Shown here in pieces: positions 35,022 through 38,286 of a stretch of 64,000 nucleotides of DNA. The notes under the pieces were generated by a model that had not been told where the DNA came from, did not search any database, and saw only the letters and a list, made by a program, of their open reading frames with translations. The DNA comes from an uncultured Actinomycetes bacterium. GTDB lineage: Bacteria; Actinomycetota; Thermoleophilia; Gaiellales; Gaiellaceae. The position numbers were made by a program, and so were the translations under genes. Where the stretch lies: positions 135,310 through 199,309 of the forward strand of contig CAWJXV010000008.1 of assembly GCA_963846915.1 (NCBI GenBank). Reading direction: 5' to 3'. How positions within the stretch are numbered: the first letter of the stretch is position 1; each line of letters begins with the position of its first letter.

Positions 35022-35621
35022 TCACGAGATGAAAGGATCGAGCGCCGCCGAGCCGTCCTCGACGCTGAGCGGAACCGGGAACGACAGCCCGATCGGTCTG
35101 TCGAGGACGATTCGCGAAAACACGCTCAGATGCTGGGCATGGCTAGCAGCGATGCGCGCGAACGCGCCGCGCGTGCCGGCATCTTGCAGCGATCCTGCAC
35201 CGCCCAGGTAGATGCCCAGGAACGCCGTCTCGAGCTGGAGGCCGAGCTGCGCCGTGCTGCGCCTCGTCGCGAACGCCTTGGCCGGGAAGGTGAAGTCGAA
35301 GTCGCCGGCCTGACCCGGCGTCTGGCCGGCGTCGGTCAGGAACTTGGCGGTCGCGGTGTAGTGCTCGCCCTCGTTCGAGAGCGCCCGCTTCAGGTATCGG
35401 GTCTCGTTCCCGCCGAAGACCTTCGCAGCCAGTGCCTGTGTGTAGAACTCGGCTCCGAGGAGCTCCGCTGCGAGCGCCAGCGTCACCACCGGGATGTCCC
35501 CCGGGCCGATCGCCTCGGCGCCGGCCGCTGCTTCGGACGCAAAGACGCCGCCGGTCAGCGCGAAGGCGGCGCCCCCTGCCGCGGTCCGAGCCAGCAGTTG
35601 ACCCCGAGTCAGTCCTGTCAC
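35022..35621 (-). CDS. Ferritin-like domain protein with N-terminal export signal
   Basis: ORF 35022..35621. LTRGQLLARTAAGGAAFALTGGVFA signal-like N-terminus. LALAAELLGAEFYTQAL...NEGEHY...IAASHAQH resembles ferritin-like (Ferritin_2/DUF4439-type) helices. Confidence 0.7.
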   Translation of the reverse strand: MTGLTRGQLLARTAAGGAAFALTGGVFASEAAAGAEAIGPGDIPVVTLALAAELLGAEFYTQALAAKVFGGNETRYLKRALSNEGEHYTATAKFLTDAGQTPGQAGDFDFTFPAKAFATRRSTAQLGLQLETAFLGIYLGGAGSLQDAGTRGAFARIAASHAQHLSVFSRIVLDRPIGLSFPVPLSVEDGSAALDPFIS

Positions 35622-35670
35622 CCGCTCTCCTCTCCCACGACCTAGGCAATGCCTGGCTACAGGCGCAGGA

Positions 35671-35687
35671 TAGTAACAGACTGACTA
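35671..35687. promoter_or_regulatory. Dyad TAGTAA-N5-TGACTA, copy 3 (one mismatch)
   Basis: TAGTAACAGACTGACTA lies 50 nt upstream of the ferritin-like gene that heads the ferritin-like / HTH-TOBE / modABC gene string. An extra half-site TGACTA occurs at 35699-35704. Confidence 0.35.
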
Positions 35688-35701
35688 CTGCCCTGGGCTG
35701 A

Positions 35702-36286
35702 CTATCGCACTCGGGCGGTGAGCAGGAAGCGCAGGACGGCGCGGGTGGACTCGAGCCGCCACTCCACGAGCGTCCGTTCGAAGCCCTCGAGCTCGCGCGC
35801 CTGCTCCTCCAGCGCCTCCGCAACCGGCTCGAGCAGCGCCTGCTCGGCCTCGAGCAACGGCGCCGGATCGCCGCCGGAGCGGTCGAGGAAGAGGAGCTTG
35901 AGCATCAGCAGCGAGCGAACGTCGCGCACGTGCTCCACGGGCTCGTTCAACCACCGGCCCAGACGGCGGCGTCCGAGCGCCGTCGCCCGGATCGATCTCC
36001 GGTCCGGACCCCGATCGCTCGGCTCGACGGCTCCCTTCTCCACGAGCCCGGCCTCGACCAGCTCGTCGAGCGCGCGATACACGAGCGGCCGGGAGAGCGA
36101 CCACACGCGCCCGATCTCGCCGTCGGAGCCGAGCGCCTTCGCGACCGCGAACCCGTGCGTCGGGCCCTCCGCGGTCAGCGCGAGCACGGCCCACGCGCCG
36201 GCGCCCAGCGATTTCTCGGCCACGGAGAGACCATAACTTCCCCATCCCTGGATCGAGGGATGCCGGGCCGTGGCCGGCTGGTCCAT
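35702..36286 (-). CDS. PadR family transcriptional regulator
   Basis: ORF 35702..36286. WAVLALTAEGPTHGFAVAKAL...WSLSRPLVYRALDELVEAGLV is PadR wHTH, followed by a C-terminal coiled region. The start may be GTG 36223. Confidence 0.85.
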   Translation of the reverse strand: MDQPATARHPSIQGWGSYGLSVAEKSLGAGAWAVLALTAEGPTHGFAVAKALGSDGEIGRVWSLSRPLVYRALDELVEAGLVEKGAVEPSDRGPDRRSIRATALGRRRLGRWLNEPVEHVRDVRSLLMLKLLFLDRSGGDPAPLLEAEQALLEPVAEALEEQARELEGFERTLVEWRLESTRAVLRFLLTARVR

Positions 36287-36644
36287 GCTGAGGAGTGGCG
36301 TGACGTTCGTCTACCTCGCTCACCGGCGCTCGCAGGACGTGCTCACGGCGTTCCAGGCGCGGCCGATGATCGTGTCGCTCCGCACCCAGCGCCGGCTCAT
36401 CTCGGCGACCGACGCGCACTTCCTGGTGACAGAGCTCGCCCGCCTCCCTGAGACACGCTGGCCGGCGGCCCCGGCGCTCAGGGAGCGCATGGTCACGGGC
36501 CTCGCGAGGGGCTGGCCGATCACGCTGACCGCGGACGAGGAGCCGACGTTGCTCCGCGCGGTCGCGGGTGCCCGAACGCGGCGCCCGCTCACGGCGGGCC
36601 TGCGCCTCCTGCGCGATGCGCTCGCTCCCGGCAGCGTCGGTTAG
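36270..36644 (+). CDS. Hypothetical protein
   Basis: ORF 36270..36644, divergent from PadR. No recognisable motif. An alternative ATG lies at 36285. Confidence 0.4.
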   Translation: MAGWSMLRSGVTFVYLAHRRSQDVLTAFQARPMIVSLRTQRRLISATDAHFLVTELARLPETRWPAAPALRERMVTGLARGWPITLTADEEPTLLRAVAGARTRRPLTAGLRLLRDALAPGSVG

Positions 36645-36645
36645 A

Positions 36646-36732
36646 GTCTCGTCACCGGGGTGCCCCGGCGGGTCCGGGGCTGAGATCACACCCGCTGAAC
36701 CTGATCCGGTTCGTACCGGCGAAGGGAGGCGT
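36646..36732 (+). promoter_or_regulatory. TPP (THI-box) riboswitch
   Basis: GUCUCGUCACCGGGGUGCCCCGGCGGGUCCGGGGCUGAGAUCACACCCGCUGAACCUGAUCCGGUUCGUACCGGCGAAGGGAGGCGU. It contains the conserved GGGGUGC, CUGAGA, ACCC..GAACCUGAUC.GG...ACC.GCG.AGGGA elements. Candidate P1 is GUCUC/GAGGC, whose 3' strand overlaps the GGGAGG Shine-Dalgarno of the ATG at 36733. Confidence 0.85.
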
Positions 36733-36936
36733 ATGAGCGTAGGCTCGACGGAGCTCACGGAGGAGCGGAGGCGGTGGCTCCGCCGCCGCCGGGAGCGGGC
36801 ATGAGCGTAGGCTCGACGGAGCTCACAGAAGAGCGGAGGCGGTGGCTCCGCCGCCGCCGGGAGCGGGCATGAGCGTAGGCTCGACGGAGCTCACAGAAGA
36901 GCGGAGGCGGTGGCTCTGCCGCCGCCGGGAGCGGGA
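36733..36936 (+). repeat. Tandem repeat, 3 x 68 bp
   Basis: Units 36733-36800, 36801-36868 and 36869-36936. Unit 1 vs unit 2 has 2 substitutions (ACG/ACA, GAG/GAA). Unit 2 vs unit 3 has 2 substitutions (CGC/TGC, GCA/GAA). Each unit starts with ATGAGCGTAGGCTCGACGGAGCTCAC. Confidence 0.95.
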
Positions 36937-36940
36937 ATGA
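36733..36940 (+). other. Three chained 23-codon mini-ORFs (MSVGSTELTEERRRWL[R/C]RRRER[A/E]) between the riboswitch and cytX
   Basis: ORFs 36733-36804, 36801-36872 and 36869-36940. Each TGA overlaps the next ATG (ATGA), and the last overlaps the cytX ATG at 36937. A GGGAG lies 5 nt before every ATG. Translation is not demonstrated. Confidence 0.35.
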
Positions 36941-38286
36941 GCTCGGAAACGCCTCCGTGGGGCATCGAGCCCGTCCCCGACAGGCTCCGCGTCCTCGGCT
37001 TCCTCGACTCGCTCCTGCTCTGGGGGAACCTCTCCGTCTCGCTGCTCGTGATCGTGATCGGCGCCCTGCTCGTGCCGGCGCTCTCGCTTCGCGACGCGCT
37101 GCTCGCGATCGTGGTCGGCGCGATCGCCGGCAGCGCACTCCTGGCCGCCGCGGCGCTGATCGGCGCCGACGGCCGCGTGCCGGGAATGGTGCTGCTGCGC
37201 GCGCCGCTCGGGAGGCAGGGCTCGTACGCGCCGACCGTCCTCAACATCGCGCAGAACGTCGGCTGGTCGACCTTCGAGCTGATCATCATCGCCGCCGCCG
37301 CCGGCGCGCTCTCGAAGCACCTGTTCGGCTGGCAGGGCACGTGGTTCTGGACGATCGTGTTCGGACTGCTCTCCTGGGCGCTCGGGATGCTCGGGCCGAT
37401 CGGGTTCGTGCGCCGCTACGTGCGGAAGTTCGCGTCGTGGGCGCTGATCTTCGCGATGGCGTACCTGACCTACTGGGCGATCGAGAAGGCCAACCTCCAT
37501 GCGTTCTGGGCGCAGCCGGGCAAGGGCGGCTTCCCGACGTTCGGCCAGGCGATCGACCTCGTGATCGCGAGCGTCGTCTCCTGGACACCGCTCGCCGCCG
37601 ACTACACACGCTTCTCGCGCTCACGGCGCGGCGCCTTCTGGGGCGCGGGGCTCGGCTACGTCGTGCCGACGATCTGGTGCATCGGGCTCGGCATCCTCGT
37701 CGTCCTCGCGCGGGGGATCGCCGATGCGCAGTCGCTGCCGGCCGGCGTCGCGGCGGCGGGAGGTGTCGCGCTCGTCGCCCTCGCGGCGATCACGATCGAC
37801 GAGAGCGAGAAGGCGTTCGCCGACATCTACTCGACCGCGGTGTCGATCCAGAACCTGCTCCCGCGCGTGTCGCAGCGGCTCCTGATCACGCTCGTCTCCG
37901 CGGCGGCGACCGGGCTCGCGCTCGCGCTCGACCTCGGCAACTACCAGAACTTCCTCTACCTGCTCGGGTCGTGCTTCGTCCCGCTCTTCGGCGTGCTGCT
38001 CGCCGACTGGCTCGTCGCCGGCGCGCACTACCGGGAGCAGGACATCTTCGGCGCGCCCGCCTTCCGGTTCGAGCAGATCGCGGCGTGGGTCGTCGGCTTC
38101 TGCCTCTACCAGTGGCTGTCGCCGGTCGGGCCGAACTGGTGGACCCACCTCGTCGCCCACACGCATCCGGGCTACGTGAGCTTCACCGCCTCGTTACCGG
38201 CCTTCGGAGCCTCGTTCGCGCTCGCGGCGGCCGGCGCGTTCGTCTATCGGCGCGTCCGCACGCGCAGCGCGCTGGCCGAGGCCTGA
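36937..38286 (+). CDS. cytX: NCS1-family transporter, CytX-like (putative hydroxymethylpyrimidine/thiamine-precursor permease)
   Basis: ORF 36910..38286 trimmed to ATG 36937 (MSSETPPWGIEPVPDRLRVLGFLDSLLLWGNLSVSLL...). 12 transmembrane helices. Lies downstream of the TPP riboswitch, as is usual for cytX. Confidence 0.85.
   Translation: MSSETPPWGIEPVPDRLRVLGFLDSLLLWGNLSVSLLVIVIGALLVPALSLRDALLAIVVGAIAGSALLAAAALIGADGRVPGMVLLRAPLGRQGSYAPTVLNIAQNVGWSTFELIIIAAAAGALSKHLFGWQGTWFWTIVFGLLSWALGMLGPIGFVRRYVRKFASWALIFAMAYLTYWAIEKANLHAFWAQPGKGGFPTFGQAIDLVIASVVSWTPLAADYTRFSRSRRGAFWGAGLGYVVPTIWCIGLGILVVLARGIADAQSLPAGVAAAGGVALVALAAITIDESEKAFADIYSTAVSIQNLLPRVSQRLLITLVSAAATGLALALDLGNYQNFLYLLGSCFVPLFGVLLADWLVAGAHYREQDIFGAPAFRFEQIAAWVVGFCLYQWLSPVGPNWWTHLVAHTHPGYVSFTASLPAFGASFALAAAGAFVYRRVRTRSALAEA

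What the first reader, a model, noticed from the sequence alone, without database searches (positions are those of the whole stretch)
36646..36940. TPP riboswitch drives a chain of three 68-bp tandem repeats, each a 23-codon Arg-rich mini-ORF linked ATGA-to-ATGA onto the cytX start codon
A good THI-box aptamer lies at 36646-36732. Its candidate P1 3' strand (GAGGC) overlaps the GGGAGG Shine-Dalgarno of an ATG at 36733. That ATG does not start the transporter. It starts the first of three near-identical 68-bp units (36733, 36801, 36869). Each unit reads ATG AGC GTA GGC TCG ACG GAG CTC AC(G/A) GA(G/A) GAG CGG AGG CGG TGG CTC (C/T)GC CGC CGC CGG GAG CGG G(C/A)A TGA, giving MSVGSTELTEERRRWL(R/C)RRRER(A/E). 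Each TGA overlaps the next ATG, and the third overlaps the cytX ATG at 36937. Because 68 is 2 mod 3, every unit shifts frame, and three units bring the frame back to that of the first ATG. A GGGAG precedes every ATG. Each unit can also form a bulged hairpin (GAGCuCAC ... GUGGCUC) whose loop contains GGAGG-like strings. The two unit-1/unit-2 differences are synonymous; the two unit-2/unit-3 differences are not. In this reading the riboswitch gates only the first mini-ORF, and cytX expression would depend on three successive termination-reinitiation events. I know of no TPP-riboswitch expression platform built this way. It could be a multi-step translational relay, an attenuator, or a recent slippage expansion of the leader.
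Basis: partly seen in the sequence, partly recalled or inferred. Interest (0 to 1): 0.85.

Follow-up and report, generated by a model that had tools for sequence, protein, structure and literature searches.

The report
MIRU-like mobile repeat behind TPP riboswitch
The three 68-bp repeats between a thiamine riboswitch and its transporter gene are copies of a small dispersed repeat that lands on start codons in related soil actinobacteria and carries its own mini-gene, so that ribosomes can pass through it; this is a new example of a kind known from mycobacteria, not a new kind of riboswitch.

Summary
In detail: a TPP aptamer (RF00059, 61.9 bits), three 68-bp units (36733-36936, 97% alike), three 23-codon ORFs chained by ATGA, then a cytX-like permease. 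The interpretation needs recasting.

- **Clean insertion.** Close relatives (88-94% CytX identity) have the aptamer's GGGAGG followed directly by the cytX ATGAGC (empty site). Two other species carry exactly one unit. A second strain of the window's species carries at least four. The insert is 68 bp flanked by duplicated ATGAGC.
- **Dispersed family.** The same unit sits at unrelated same-strand gene junctions in other metagenome contigs: nuoJ|nuoK (with empty-site relatives), paaA|paaB, a two-component operon and others. It always lies in the sense orientation, with NTGA stop/start overlaps.
- **Frame is kept.** Copies with indels still keep an unbroken ORF chain.

These are the defining traits of mycobacterial MIRUs, found here in Gaiellaceae. 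Sequence homology to MIRUs was not tested.

The element landed on the riboswitch-gated start codon and expanded as a variable-number repeat. Relay of TPP control to cytX by serial termination-reinitiation is plausible but inferred. The unit's own GGGAG may allow TPP-independent starts.

Verdict: new member of a known kind; moderate interest.

The parts
36642..36647 (+). TAGAGT hexamer, a possible actinobacterial -10 (TANNNT). It is conserved in position ahead of the aptamer in nearly all related cytX leaders.
   Evidence: TAGAGT, TAACCT, TAGGCT, TACACT and similar hexamers lie at a fixed distance before the CCGGGG core in 20+ loci. The sigma-70 consensus scan found nothing. This is inference only.
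36646..36745 (+). TPP riboswitch aptamer (RF00059 match). The core helices P2-P5 span about 36656-36725. The last ~13 nt of the match are already unit 1.
   Evidence: 61.9 bits against a gathering score of 54.3. P2-P5 are 99-100% paired with compensatory changes across 23 relatives; P1 is not resolved.
36724..36729 (+). SD1 (GGGAGG). It overlaps the aptamer's invariant 3' AGGGA and lies 3 nt before the ATG at 36733. This is the riboswitch-gated ribosome-binding site.
   Evidence: Sequence. Empty-site relatives use the same SD and ATG for cytX itself.
36733..36936 (+). Array of three 68-bp MIRU-like units (36733-36800, 36801-36868, 36869-36936).
   Evidence: TRF: period 68, 3.1 copies, 97% matches. 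(nhmmer unit profile: 68.9-74.8 bits per unit). Unit 3 is identical to the cytX-proximal unit of strain L001. It shares T49 with the single unit of both L034 and L002, and A68 with L034.
36733..36804 (+). Mini-ORF 1, 23 codons (MSVGSTELTEERRRWLRRRRERA). It starts at the riboswitch-gated ATG, and its TGA overlaps ATG 2.
36801..36872 (+). Mini-ORF 2, 23 codons. ATGA overlaps at both ends.
36869..36940 (+). Mini-ORF 3, 23 codons (…WLCRRRERE). Its TGA overlaps the cytX ATG.
36937..36942 (+). Terminal ATGAGC direct repeat (also at 36733, 36801 and 36869). It is the duplicated target, made of the start codon plus AGC.
   Evidence: Empty sites read GGCG(C/T)|ATGAGC|TC…. Filled sites read GGCG(C/T)|ATGAGC|[62 nt + ATGAGC]n|TC….
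36770..36790 (+). G+C-rich hairpin of unit 1 (GGCGGUGGC-UCC-GCCGCCGCC). The same hairpin lies at 36838-36858 and 36906-36926.
   Evidence: consensus structure, columns 38-58. (present in most single-unit folds, but z-scores of only -0.05 to -2.5).
36927..36931 (+). Unit-borne SD (GGGAG), 5 nt before the cytX ATG. The same motif lies at 36791-36795 and 36859-36863, before ATG 2 and ATG 3.
   Evidence: Sequence. Predicted mean P(unpaired) is 0.68 for this SD and 0.54 for the cytX ATG.
36937..38286 (+). cytX-like NCS1 permease (putative hydroxymethylpyrimidine transporter), 449 aa.
   Evidence: PF02133; TIGR02358 at 269.8 bits, below its cut-off. (Gaiellaceae orthologues).

Best explanation
The 68-bp unit belongs to a small dispersed repeat family of Gaiellaceae (Thermoleophilia, Actinomycetota). 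[quoted passage not shown]

**What the element is**
- It sits in the sense orientation exactly at the start codon of a gene and duplicates (N)TGAGC.
- It carries a 23-codon ORF. The ORF's start takes over the original initiation signal, or overlaps the upstream gene's stop as NTGA.
- The ORF's TGA overlaps the displaced start codon (ATGA).
- The unit also carries its own GGGAG Shine-Dalgarno (SD) motif 5 nt upstream of that start.

**What happened at this locus**
- One unit landed on the cytX start codon. In the ancestral state that codon lies 3 nt after the SD embedded in the 3' end of a TPP riboswitch aptamer.
- The unit has since been amplified in tandem, to three copies in this genome and at least four in a sister strain.

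**Shown**
- The insertion, its dispersal to other loci, the copy-number polymorphism, and retention of the ORF chain.

**Inferred**
- TPP binding occludes SD1 and so blocks mini-ORF 1.
- Ribosomes that do translate mini-ORF 1 terminate and reinitiate at each ATGA and finally at cytX.
- The element would then be largely transparent to riboswitch control, and each added unit would probably attenuate output.
- The repeat would be a tolerated, selfish or neutral passenger that may incidentally tune expression, not an evolved expression platform.

The confidence of 0.8 is for the identity of the repeat (a MIRU-like dispersed element inserted at the start codon and expanded in tandem). For the inferred relay of TPP control through the mini-ORFs I would put about 0.55.
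For: **1. Empty and filled alleles at cytX**
- L049, L050, L051 and L052-57 (88-94% CytX identity to the window) read …CGAAGGGAG(G/A)CG(C/T)|ATGAGC|(TC/AC)… with no unit.
- L034 and L002 have one unit, the window has three, and L001 has at least 4.2.
- L001 is the same species: 5 differences in the 1350 nt of cytX, and an identical protein.
- Gene spacing on contigs held without DNA fits 0 or 1 unit: gaps of 88 or 158 nt, against 292 nt in the window.

**2. The same unit at unrelated junctions**
- All copies score 50-75 bits against the unit profile.
- nuoJ|unit|nuoK in L048. paaA|unit|25-nt spacer|unit|paaB in L045. VOC-type enzyme|unit|PLP enzyme in L047. Unknown gene|unit|helicase-like gene in L046. 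Response regulator with HD domain|2 units|LuxR-type regulator in L064-68.
- Two further loci are known only from called proteins, P0262 and P0263.

**3. A second empty/filled pair**
- In relatives L058-60, nuoJ and nuoK are natively coupled as …gagcaATGAGTGGGCC.
- L048 reads …cggaGTGAGC[62 nt]ATGAGCGGGCC.

**4. Chain retention**
- Every junction is an NTGA overlap, except one that has a 2-nt gap.
- All four copies with indels keep an uninterrupted ORF chain. L046 has +3 nt. L047 has -1 and +1. L045a has -1 and reads on to an ATGA on the next unit. L064 unit 1 has +1 and is fused in frame to unit 2.
- On a naive 1/3 chance per case, p is about 0.01-0.04. This is my inference.

**5. The peptide is not conserved as such**
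- There are 6 synonymous and 8 non-synonymous variants over 18 and 48 sites.
- Variable columns fall 5/2/4 by codon position and lie mostly in hairpin loops.

**6. Literature**
[quoted passage not shown] 1997).
- MIRUs are 40-100 bp, show direct repeats at filled sites, and have ORF ends that overlap the adjacent genes (PMC3184786).
- Riboswitch > uORF > AUGA termination-reinitiation is experimentally shown for M. tuberculosis ppe2 (PMC11260477).
Against: - All sequences are metagenome assemblies or MAGs, and no reads were examined.
- Dispersal within one genome is not shown. The unit profile finds no other copy in this 64-kb window, and the other loci come from different contigs or samples. 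L065 and L001 do share one sample.
- Filled and empty cytX alleles are interleaved on a simple NJ tree. This requires repeated precise loss or repeated insertion, or the tree is unreliable.
- No mobilising enzyme is identified, and sequence homology to mycobacterial MIRUs was not tested.
- Against the inferred relay: the unit-borne SD and the cytX ATG are predicted to be fairly accessible (P unpaired 0.68 and 0.54). De novo, TPP-independent initiation at cytX is therefore possible.
- The aptamer's P1, and hence the exact way SD1 is occluded, is unresolved.
- Hairpin stability is not better than that of shuffled sequence.
Confidence: 0.8

Rival explanations
1. Riboswitch bypass. The element is the same MIRU-like insertion, but ribosomes load de novo on the unit-borne GGGAG in front of cytX. 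The insertion, and even more its expansion, would then partly or wholly uncouple cytX from TPP control. The mini-ORFs would be irrelevant to cytX output.
For: - GGGAG lies at an ideal 5-nt spacing before the cytX ATG.
- Predicted P(unpaired) is 0.68 for that SD and 0.54 for the ATG, higher than for SD1 at 0.34.
- At operon junctions the unit must in any case supply initiation signals for the downstream gene.
Against: - Indel-bearing copies keep the ORF chain and the 4-nt overlaps, which suggests that translation through the unit matters.
- The native nuoJ-nuoK junction was itself ATGA-coupled.
- The aptamer is still intact and conserved in the filled alleles of three species. That would be unexpected if it no longer regulated anything, although the time elapsed may be short.
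Confidence: 0.25
2. Purpose-built multi-step translational relay or attenuator. This is the first reader's main reading: the three mini-ORFs evolved as the expression platform of this TPP riboswitch.
For: - The ATGA chain runs from the riboswitch-gated ATG to cytX.
- A single unit is retained in two other species.
- An unrelated 47-codon uORF with a GTGA overlap lies between the aptamer and cytX in L009, so uORF coupling behind this riboswitch recurs.
Against: - Most close relatives lack the unit and use the same SD and ATG directly.
- The same unit occurs at nuoJ|nuoK, paaA|paaB and a two-component operon, none of which has a riboswitch.
- Copy number is polymorphic within the species.
- No terminator-like or alternative-hairpin logic was found.
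Confidence: 0.04
3. Assembly artefact. The tandem array, or its copy number, is a product of misassembly of a single unit.
For: - A short-read contig (L001) breaks inside the array.
- The copy number cannot be checked without reads.
Against: - The three units differ from one another by two substitutions each, so they can be ordered.
- An independent assembly from another sample carries at least four units with its own variant, GTAAGC.
- Tandem pairs are also assembled identically at the two-component locus in five loci fetched from five different samples.
Confidence: 0.04
4. The mini-ORF encodes a functional Arg-rich micropeptide, and the repeats are gene duplications of it.
For: - The first 9 residues (MSVGSTELT) are nearly invariant among copies.
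- There is a slight excess of synonymous change per site: 6 per 18 against 8 per 48.
Against: - Frameshifted copies encode unrelated peptides yet keep the chain: L045a, the L047 tail, and the L064 fusion.
- The invariant 5' part is equally explained by constraint at the DNA or RNA level.
- Variable columns are not biased towards third codon positions.
- The protein search found only three called proteins containing the peptide, none with a family assignment.
Confidence: 0.05

Closest known systems
Mycobacterial interspersed repetitive units (MIRUs / MIRU-VNTR loci; Supply et al. 1997, as summarised in PMC12548453 and PMC3184786)
   Same: - The unit is 40-100 bp.
- It is dispersed at junctions between same-strand genes in operons and lies in the sense orientation.
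- It is inserted at start codons, with short direct repeats at filled sites.
- It has an internal small ORF whose ends overlap the flanking stop and start codons by 4 nt.
- It occurs as tandem arrays whose copy number varies between strains.
- One locus lies between two-component system genes, as did the founding senX3-regX3 MIRU.
   Different: - The host is Gaiellaceae (class Thermoleophilia), not Mycobacterium.
- Sequence similarity to MIRU consensus sequences was not tested.
- The number of copies per genome is unknown.
- Here one copy lies behind a riboswitch-gated start codon rather than between two cistrons. In the papers I searched I found no MIRU reported in that position.
M. tuberculosis ppe2 B12 riboswitch with the uPPE2 uORF (Kipkorir et al. 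2024, PMC11260477)
   Same: An actinobacterial translational OFF riboswitch controls a short uORF. The uORF's stop overlaps the main start codon (AUGA), and the main ORF is expressed mainly by termination-reinitiation.
   Different: - That system has a single, locus-specific uORF shown by experiment to be required.
- Here the uORF is a repeat-family unit, present in 0, 1, 3 or at least 4 copies, and nothing has been tested experimentally.
- The ligand class differs (B12 there, TPP here).
Ordinary actinobacterial TPP riboswitch acting on translation initiation (RF00059 with the SD at or next to the aptamer's 3' end)
   Same: The aptamer core and the SD GGGAGG embedded in the conserved AGGGA are as in the empty-site relatives. 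This is the ancestral architecture of the locus.
   Different: The start codon that follows no longer opens the regulated gene.
REP/BIME elements and MITEs (small non-autonomous intergenic repeats)
   Same: Small, dispersed and G+C-rich, with hairpins, found in transcribed intergenic regions.
   Different: - The unit has no terminal inverted repeats.
- Its orientation is strictly sense.
- It is ORF-bearing, and its placement preserves the reading frame at start codons.

Membership tests
MIRU-type interspersed repeat | Unit of about 40-100 bp | tested here: met
   68 bp. Variants of 69 and 71 nt exist, plus a 67-nt degenerate copy.
MIRU-type interspersed repeat | Dispersed at many loci of a genome | tested here: inconclusive
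   At least 8 distinct loci across metagenome contigs, but no second copy in this 64-kb window.
MIRU-type interspersed repeat | Lies between same-strand genes of operons, in the orientation of transcription | tested here: met
   nuoJ|nuoK, paaA|paaB, VOC-type enzyme|PLP enzyme, response regulator with HD domain|LuxR-type regulator, and riboswitch|cytX. All are in the sense orientation.
MIRU-type interspersed repeat | Small internal ORF whose start and stop overlap the flanking stop and start codons (-4 nt) | tested here: met
   GTGA, ATGA or TTGA overlaps at all junctions examined, except a 2-nt gap before paaB. The overlaps are kept in indel-bearing copies.
MIRU-type interspersed repeat | Tandem arrays with variable copy number between strains (VNTR) | tested here: met
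   cytX locus: 0, 1, 3 and at least 4.2 units. Two units at each of two other loci. Two tandem units inside the antisense ORF P0262.
MIRU-type interspersed repeat | Empty versus filled sites with short direct repeats, indicating insertion | tested here: met
   cytX: ATGAGC is duplicated. nuoJ-nuoK: ATGAGT in the empty site against GTGAGC…ATGAGC in the filled site.
MIRU-type interspersed repeat | Sequence homology to mycobacterial MIRU consensus sequences; host in the genus Mycobacterium | not tested
   No MIRU sequence was available in the tools. The host is Gaiellaceae according to the record titles of the closest relatives. I therefore call it MIRU-like, meaning it works like a MIRU, not a member by descent.
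TPP riboswitch (RF00059) | Covariance-model score above the gathering threshold, with P2-P5 supported by covariation | tested here: met
   61.9 bits against 54.3. P2-P5 are 99-100% paired with compensatory changes in 23 relatives.
TPP riboswitch (RF00059) | A closing P1 helix whose 3' strand sequesters the SD | tested here: inconclusive
   GUCUC/GAGGC pairs in 56% of cells and CGUC/GGCG in 44%. RNAalifold finds no consensus P1. A conserved TANNNT may place the transcription start inside the proposed 5' strand.
Riboswitch-gated uORF with termination-reinitiation (ppe2 type) | The uORF start lies under riboswitch control, and the uORF stop overlaps the main start (AUGA) | tested here: met
   Sequence. 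The same SD and ATG serve cytX directly in empty-site relatives.
Riboswitch-gated uORF with termination-reinitiation (ppe2 type) | Main-ORF expression depends on uORF translation | not testable with these tools
   This needs reporters or ribosome profiling. The folding prediction does not show that the cytX SD is sequestered.
Leader-peptide transcription attenuator | An intrinsic terminator with alternative hairpins, and regulatory codons matched to the pathway | tested here: not met
   No terminator-like site in 36400-37100. Arg-rich codons have no relation to thiamine, and the same unit sits inside unrelated operons.
MITE | Terminal inverted repeats | tested here: not met
   By inspection of alignment A1, the ends GTAGGCTCGACGG… and …CCGGGAGCGGGCA are not reverse complements of each other.

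The most novel reading that the evidence does not exclude
The unit is an active, non-autonomous element that specifically targets NTGAGC start codons through an as yet unknown enzyme. It would be a second family, in a different class of Actinomycetota (Thermoleophilia), of the MIRU type, whose mobility mechanism has never been explained. Its variable copy number in the TPP-cytX leader (0, 1, 3, at least 4) would act as a heritable rheostat that scales riboswitch output through serial termination-reinitiation.
Probability: 0.3. Interest if true: 0.65.

Novelty: new member of a known kind. Interest (0 to 1): 0.45.

Why it matters
- **A new host for a known kind of element.** MIRUs have been used for decades to type M. 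tuberculosis, yet how they spread and what they do to expression is still unclear. A family that behaves the same way in Thermoleophilia, a different class of Actinomycetota, shows the design is not a mycobacterial oddity. The design is a sense-oriented mini-ORF with NTGA overlaps and its own SD, and it lands on start codons.
- **A route to the mobilising function.** The new family offers clean empty/filled pairs and a defined duplicated target (TGAGC). Comparative genomics could use these to look for the mobilising function.
- **A natural allelic series.** The TPP-cytX locus carries 0, 1, 3 and at least 4 units. This series could measure how well riboswitch control survives one or several termination-reinitiation steps.
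- **A caution for annotation.** Tandem uORF chains behind riboswitches can be repeat insertions rather than new expression platforms.

Tried and rejected
- **Other copies near cytX.** An nhmmer unit profile run on the 64-kb window and on the ~7-kb cytX loci of 43 relatives found no other copy.
- **Viral contigs.** A scan of viral contigs for the unit found nothing.
- **Unit as an exceptionally stable RNA.** Single-unit z-scores are only -0.05 to -2.5, and the consensus fold shows one compensatory pair. The structure is plausible but not demonstrated.
- **Sequestration of the cytX SD.** A fold of 36640-37000 gives a tangled MFE with long-range pairs between units and no sequestration of the cytX SD. 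It therefore gives no support for obligatory coupling.
- **P1 of the aptamer.** Two candidates were counted on 23 relatives and neither is convincing.
- **Selection on the peptide.** The synonymous/non-synonymous counts are too small to decide.
- **Single insertion followed by vertical descent.** The NJ tree interleaves filled and empty alleles, so this is left open.
- **The 68 bp as a diverged duplication of the cytX 5' end.** Dropped once the same unit was found at unrelated loci.
- **Intermediate copy numbers.** Four look-ups returned gene coordinates but no DNA. For those, only gene spacing could be used.
- **Uninformative protein hits.** NuoK hits P0141 and P0142 are chimeric duplicated assemblies.
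- **Literature.** Searches for MIRU-like elements outside mycobacteria, and for TPP riboswitches with tandem uORFs, returned nothing relevant.
Full report
**1. What is in the window**

- Rfam's TPP model (RF00059) matches 36646-36745 at 61.9 bits, above its gathering score of 54.3. It is the only Rfam family found in the 64 kb.
- Tandem Repeats Finder reports a 68-bp period, 3.1 copies, 97% matches and no indels at 36733-36942.
- Each unit reads as a 23-codon ORF that begins ATGAGC and ends in a TGA overlapping the next ATG. The third TGA overlaps the ATG at 36937.
- That ATG opens a 449-aa NCS1 permease. It matches PF02133 and best matches TIGR02358 (CytX) at 269.8 bits, below that model's cut-off.
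- The unit-to-unit differences are as stated: two synonymous between units 1 and 2, two non-synonymous between units 2 and 3.
- The DNA is about 71% G+C. The closest relatives are MAGs labelled Gaiellaceae or uncultured Actinomycetes.

**2. The repeat is an insertion, and its copy number varies**

I fetched cytX loci from 43 reference genomes and from metagenome contigs that encode near-identical CytX proteins.
- Only the window and L001 have a tandem array.
- L001 comes from another sample. Its CytX protein is identical and its gene differs at 5 of 1350 nt. The contig starts inside the array and holds at least 4.2 units, three of them with a private GTAAGC variant.
- The two next-closest species, L034 (94% amino-acid identity) and L002 (93%), carry exactly one unit, again with ATGA overlaps.
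- Other close relatives carry none. These are L050 (94.4%), L051 (92.4%), L049 (89.5%) and L052-57 (88.4%). In them the aptamer's …CGAAGGGAG(G/A)CG(C/T) is followed directly by ATGAGC and the cytX coding sequence.
- Placing empty and filled alleles side by side shows a clean 68-bp insertion flanked by a duplicated ATGAGC.
- The Shine-Dalgarno (SD) motif and ATG that the riboswitch abuts are therefore the ancestral cytX initiation signals. In the window they now open mini-ORF 1.
- Unit 3, next to cytX, is identical to the last unit of L001. It shares T49 with the single units of L034 and L002, and A68 with L034. It therefore looks like the oldest copy, with the extra copies added on its 5' side.
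- On a simple NJ tree of cytX, filled and empty alleles are interleaved. Either the unit has been lost precisely more than once, or it has inserted more than once, or the tree is not reliable. I leave this open.

**3. The same unit sits at unrelated gene junctions**

One exact-pattern scan of the metagenome collection, using 24 specified bases from the middle of the unit, returned four contigs that have nothing to do with cytX.
- L048 has the unit between nuoJ and nuoK.
- L045 has two units, separated by a 25-nt spacer, between paaA and paaB.
- L047 has it between a VOC-type enzyme gene and a PLP-dependent enzyme gene.
- L046 has it in front of a helicase-like gene.

A protein search with the unit's three relevant reading frames found three more loci.
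- P0261 is a 46-aa called gene made of two units fused in frame. It lies between a response-regulator/HD-domain gene and a LuxR-type response regulator, with 4-nt overlaps at both ends. It is assembled identically in five loci fetched from five different samples, one of which is the sample that gave L001.
- P0262 is an antisense ORF containing two tandem units.
- P0263 contains one unit.

All copies lie in the sense orientation of the flanking genes.

For nuoJ-nuoK I also recovered empty sites. Relatives L058-60 read …gagcaATGAGTGGGCC, a native ATGA overlap. L048 reads …cggaGTGAGC[62 nt]ATGAGCGGGCC. The element has therefore landed twice, independently, on an NTGAG(C/T) start codon and duplicated it.

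**4. What is conserved in the element**

- *Alignment.* Ten distinct copies were aligned. Columns 2-26 and 31-40 are almost invariant, as are the GGGAGCGG near the 3' end and the terminal NTGA. Variation falls mainly in columns 27-30 and 43-54.
- *Structure.* RNAalifold places three hairpins at columns 3-14, 21-34 and 38-58, and most variable columns are in their loops. There is only one compensatory pair, and single-unit folding energies are not better than shuffles (z = -0.05 to -2.5). Structure is plausible but unproven.
- *Peptide.* It is not clearly under selection: 6 synonymous against 8 non-synonymous variants over 18 and 48 sites, and variable columns split 5/2/4 by codon position.
- *Reading-frame chain.* This does look selected. 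All four copies with indels keep it.
  - L046 has a 3-nt insertion, giving 24 codons with the TTGA overlap kept.
  - L047 has a -1 and a +1 that restore the TTGA overlap.
  - L045a has a -1 and reads on for 31 codons to a TGA that overlaps the ATG of the next unit.
  - L064 unit 1 has a +1 that fuses it in frame to unit 2, which ends ATGA on the downstream gene.
  - On a naive one-in-three expectation per case, this is p of about 0.01-0.04. That figure is my inference, not a formal test.

**5. How it most likely works**

*Shown*
- An intact TPP aptamer, with P2-P5 99-100% paired and covarying in 23 relatives.
- An SD (GGGAGG, 36724-36729) that includes the aptamer's invariant 3' GGGA and lies 3 nt before the first ATG.
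- A chain of three ORFs linked by ATGA to cytX.

*Inferred from what is known of TPP riboswitches that act on translation*
- Ligand binding occludes this SD and so blocks mini-ORF 1.

*Inferred from the MIRU model and from termination-reinitiation studies*
- Ribosomes finishing each mini-ORF reinitiate at the overlapping ATG, helped by the unit-borne GGGAG.
- TPP control would then be passed on to cytX, with some loss at each step.

*Two caveats*
- P1 is unresolved. A conserved TANNNT hexamer (TAGAGT, 36642-36647) may be a -10 element, which would put the transcription start inside the proposed 5' strand.
- The GGGAG before cytX and the cytX ATG are predicted to be fairly open (0.68 and 0.54 unpaired). 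Some TPP-independent initiation at cytX cannot be excluded. I rate that bypass variant at about 0.25.

**6. Comparison with what is known**

- *MIRUs.* The behaviour matches published descriptions of mycobacterial interspersed repetitive units.
  - They are 40-100 bp, show direct repeats at filled sites, and have ORF ends that overlap the adjacent genes (PMC3184786).
[quoted passage not shown] 1997).
  - They are also the classic variable-number tandem repeats of M. tuberculosis.
  - Every behavioural criterion I could test is met.
  - Sequence homology to MIRUs was not tested, and the host belongs to a different class of Actinomycetota. I therefore call the element MIRU-like.
- *Riboswitch-gated uORFs.* A riboswitch gating a uORF that drives the main ORF through an AUGA overlap has experimental precedent in the M. 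tuberculosis ppe2 B12 riboswitch (PMC11260477).
- *Literature gaps.* I found no report of MIRU-like elements outside mycobacteria, nor of a TPP riboswitch followed by tandem uORFs. These searches cover open-access text only.

**7. Verdict**

- The interpretation as a novel riboswitch expression platform is not supported.
- The real finding is a previously undescribed MIRU-like repeat family in Gaiellaceae. One member landed on a riboswitch-gated start codon and became a variable-number repeat.
- I classify it as a new member of a known kind, of moderate interest.
- The main weaknesses are three: all data are metagenomic assemblies, dispersal within a single genome is not shown, and nothing about translation has been measured.

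Noticed in passing
L009:1693-1930 (Gaiellaceae MAG DASUWJ010000153.1): A different, unrelated 47-codon uORF (TTG, 1783-1926) lies between the TPP aptamer and cytX. Its TGA overlaps the cytX GTG at 1923 (GTGA). Riboswitch > uORF > 4-nt overlap > cytX has therefore arisen a second time in this family. I did not check whether this ~140-nt insert is itself a repeat.
   Followed up: partly
window 36642-36647 and the equivalent position in 20+ related loci: A TANNNT hexamer (TAGAGT, TAACCT, TAGGCT, TACACT and similar) is conserved at a fixed distance before the aptamer core, whatever gene lies upstream. It is probably the -10 promoter element. If so, the transcript starts at about 36653-36655 and the aptamer has little or no conventional P1 5' strand.
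   Followed up: partly
cytX loci L050, L051 versus window, L001, L034, L002: On an NJ tree of cytX DNA, alleles with and without the unit are interleaved. This implies repeated precise loss or repeated insertion at the same start codon.
   Followed up: partly
L064-L068 (e.g. L064:1501-1641): Two units fused into one called 46-aa gene sit between two response-regulator genes downstream of a histidine kinase. This echoes the senX3-regX3 locus where MIRUs were first described. The array is identical in five loci fetched from five different samples.
   Followed up: partly
window 35022-36644: The upstream neighbours are a Ferritin_2-like gene (35022-35621, - strand; family assigned from the equivalent 199-aa gene called in related loci L052-55), a PadR-family regulator (35702-36286, - strand) and a 124-aa ORF with no Pfam match (36270-36644, + strand). 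The TAG stop of that ORF is part of the TAGAGT hexamer. This 124-aa ORF is kept in several relatives (L034, L002, L050, L051).
   Followed up: no
proteins P0141, P0142 (NuoK search): Two database NuoK entries of 168 and 155 aa contain an internal duplication of about 65 residues. They are most likely assembly chimeras from short contigs.
   Followed up: no
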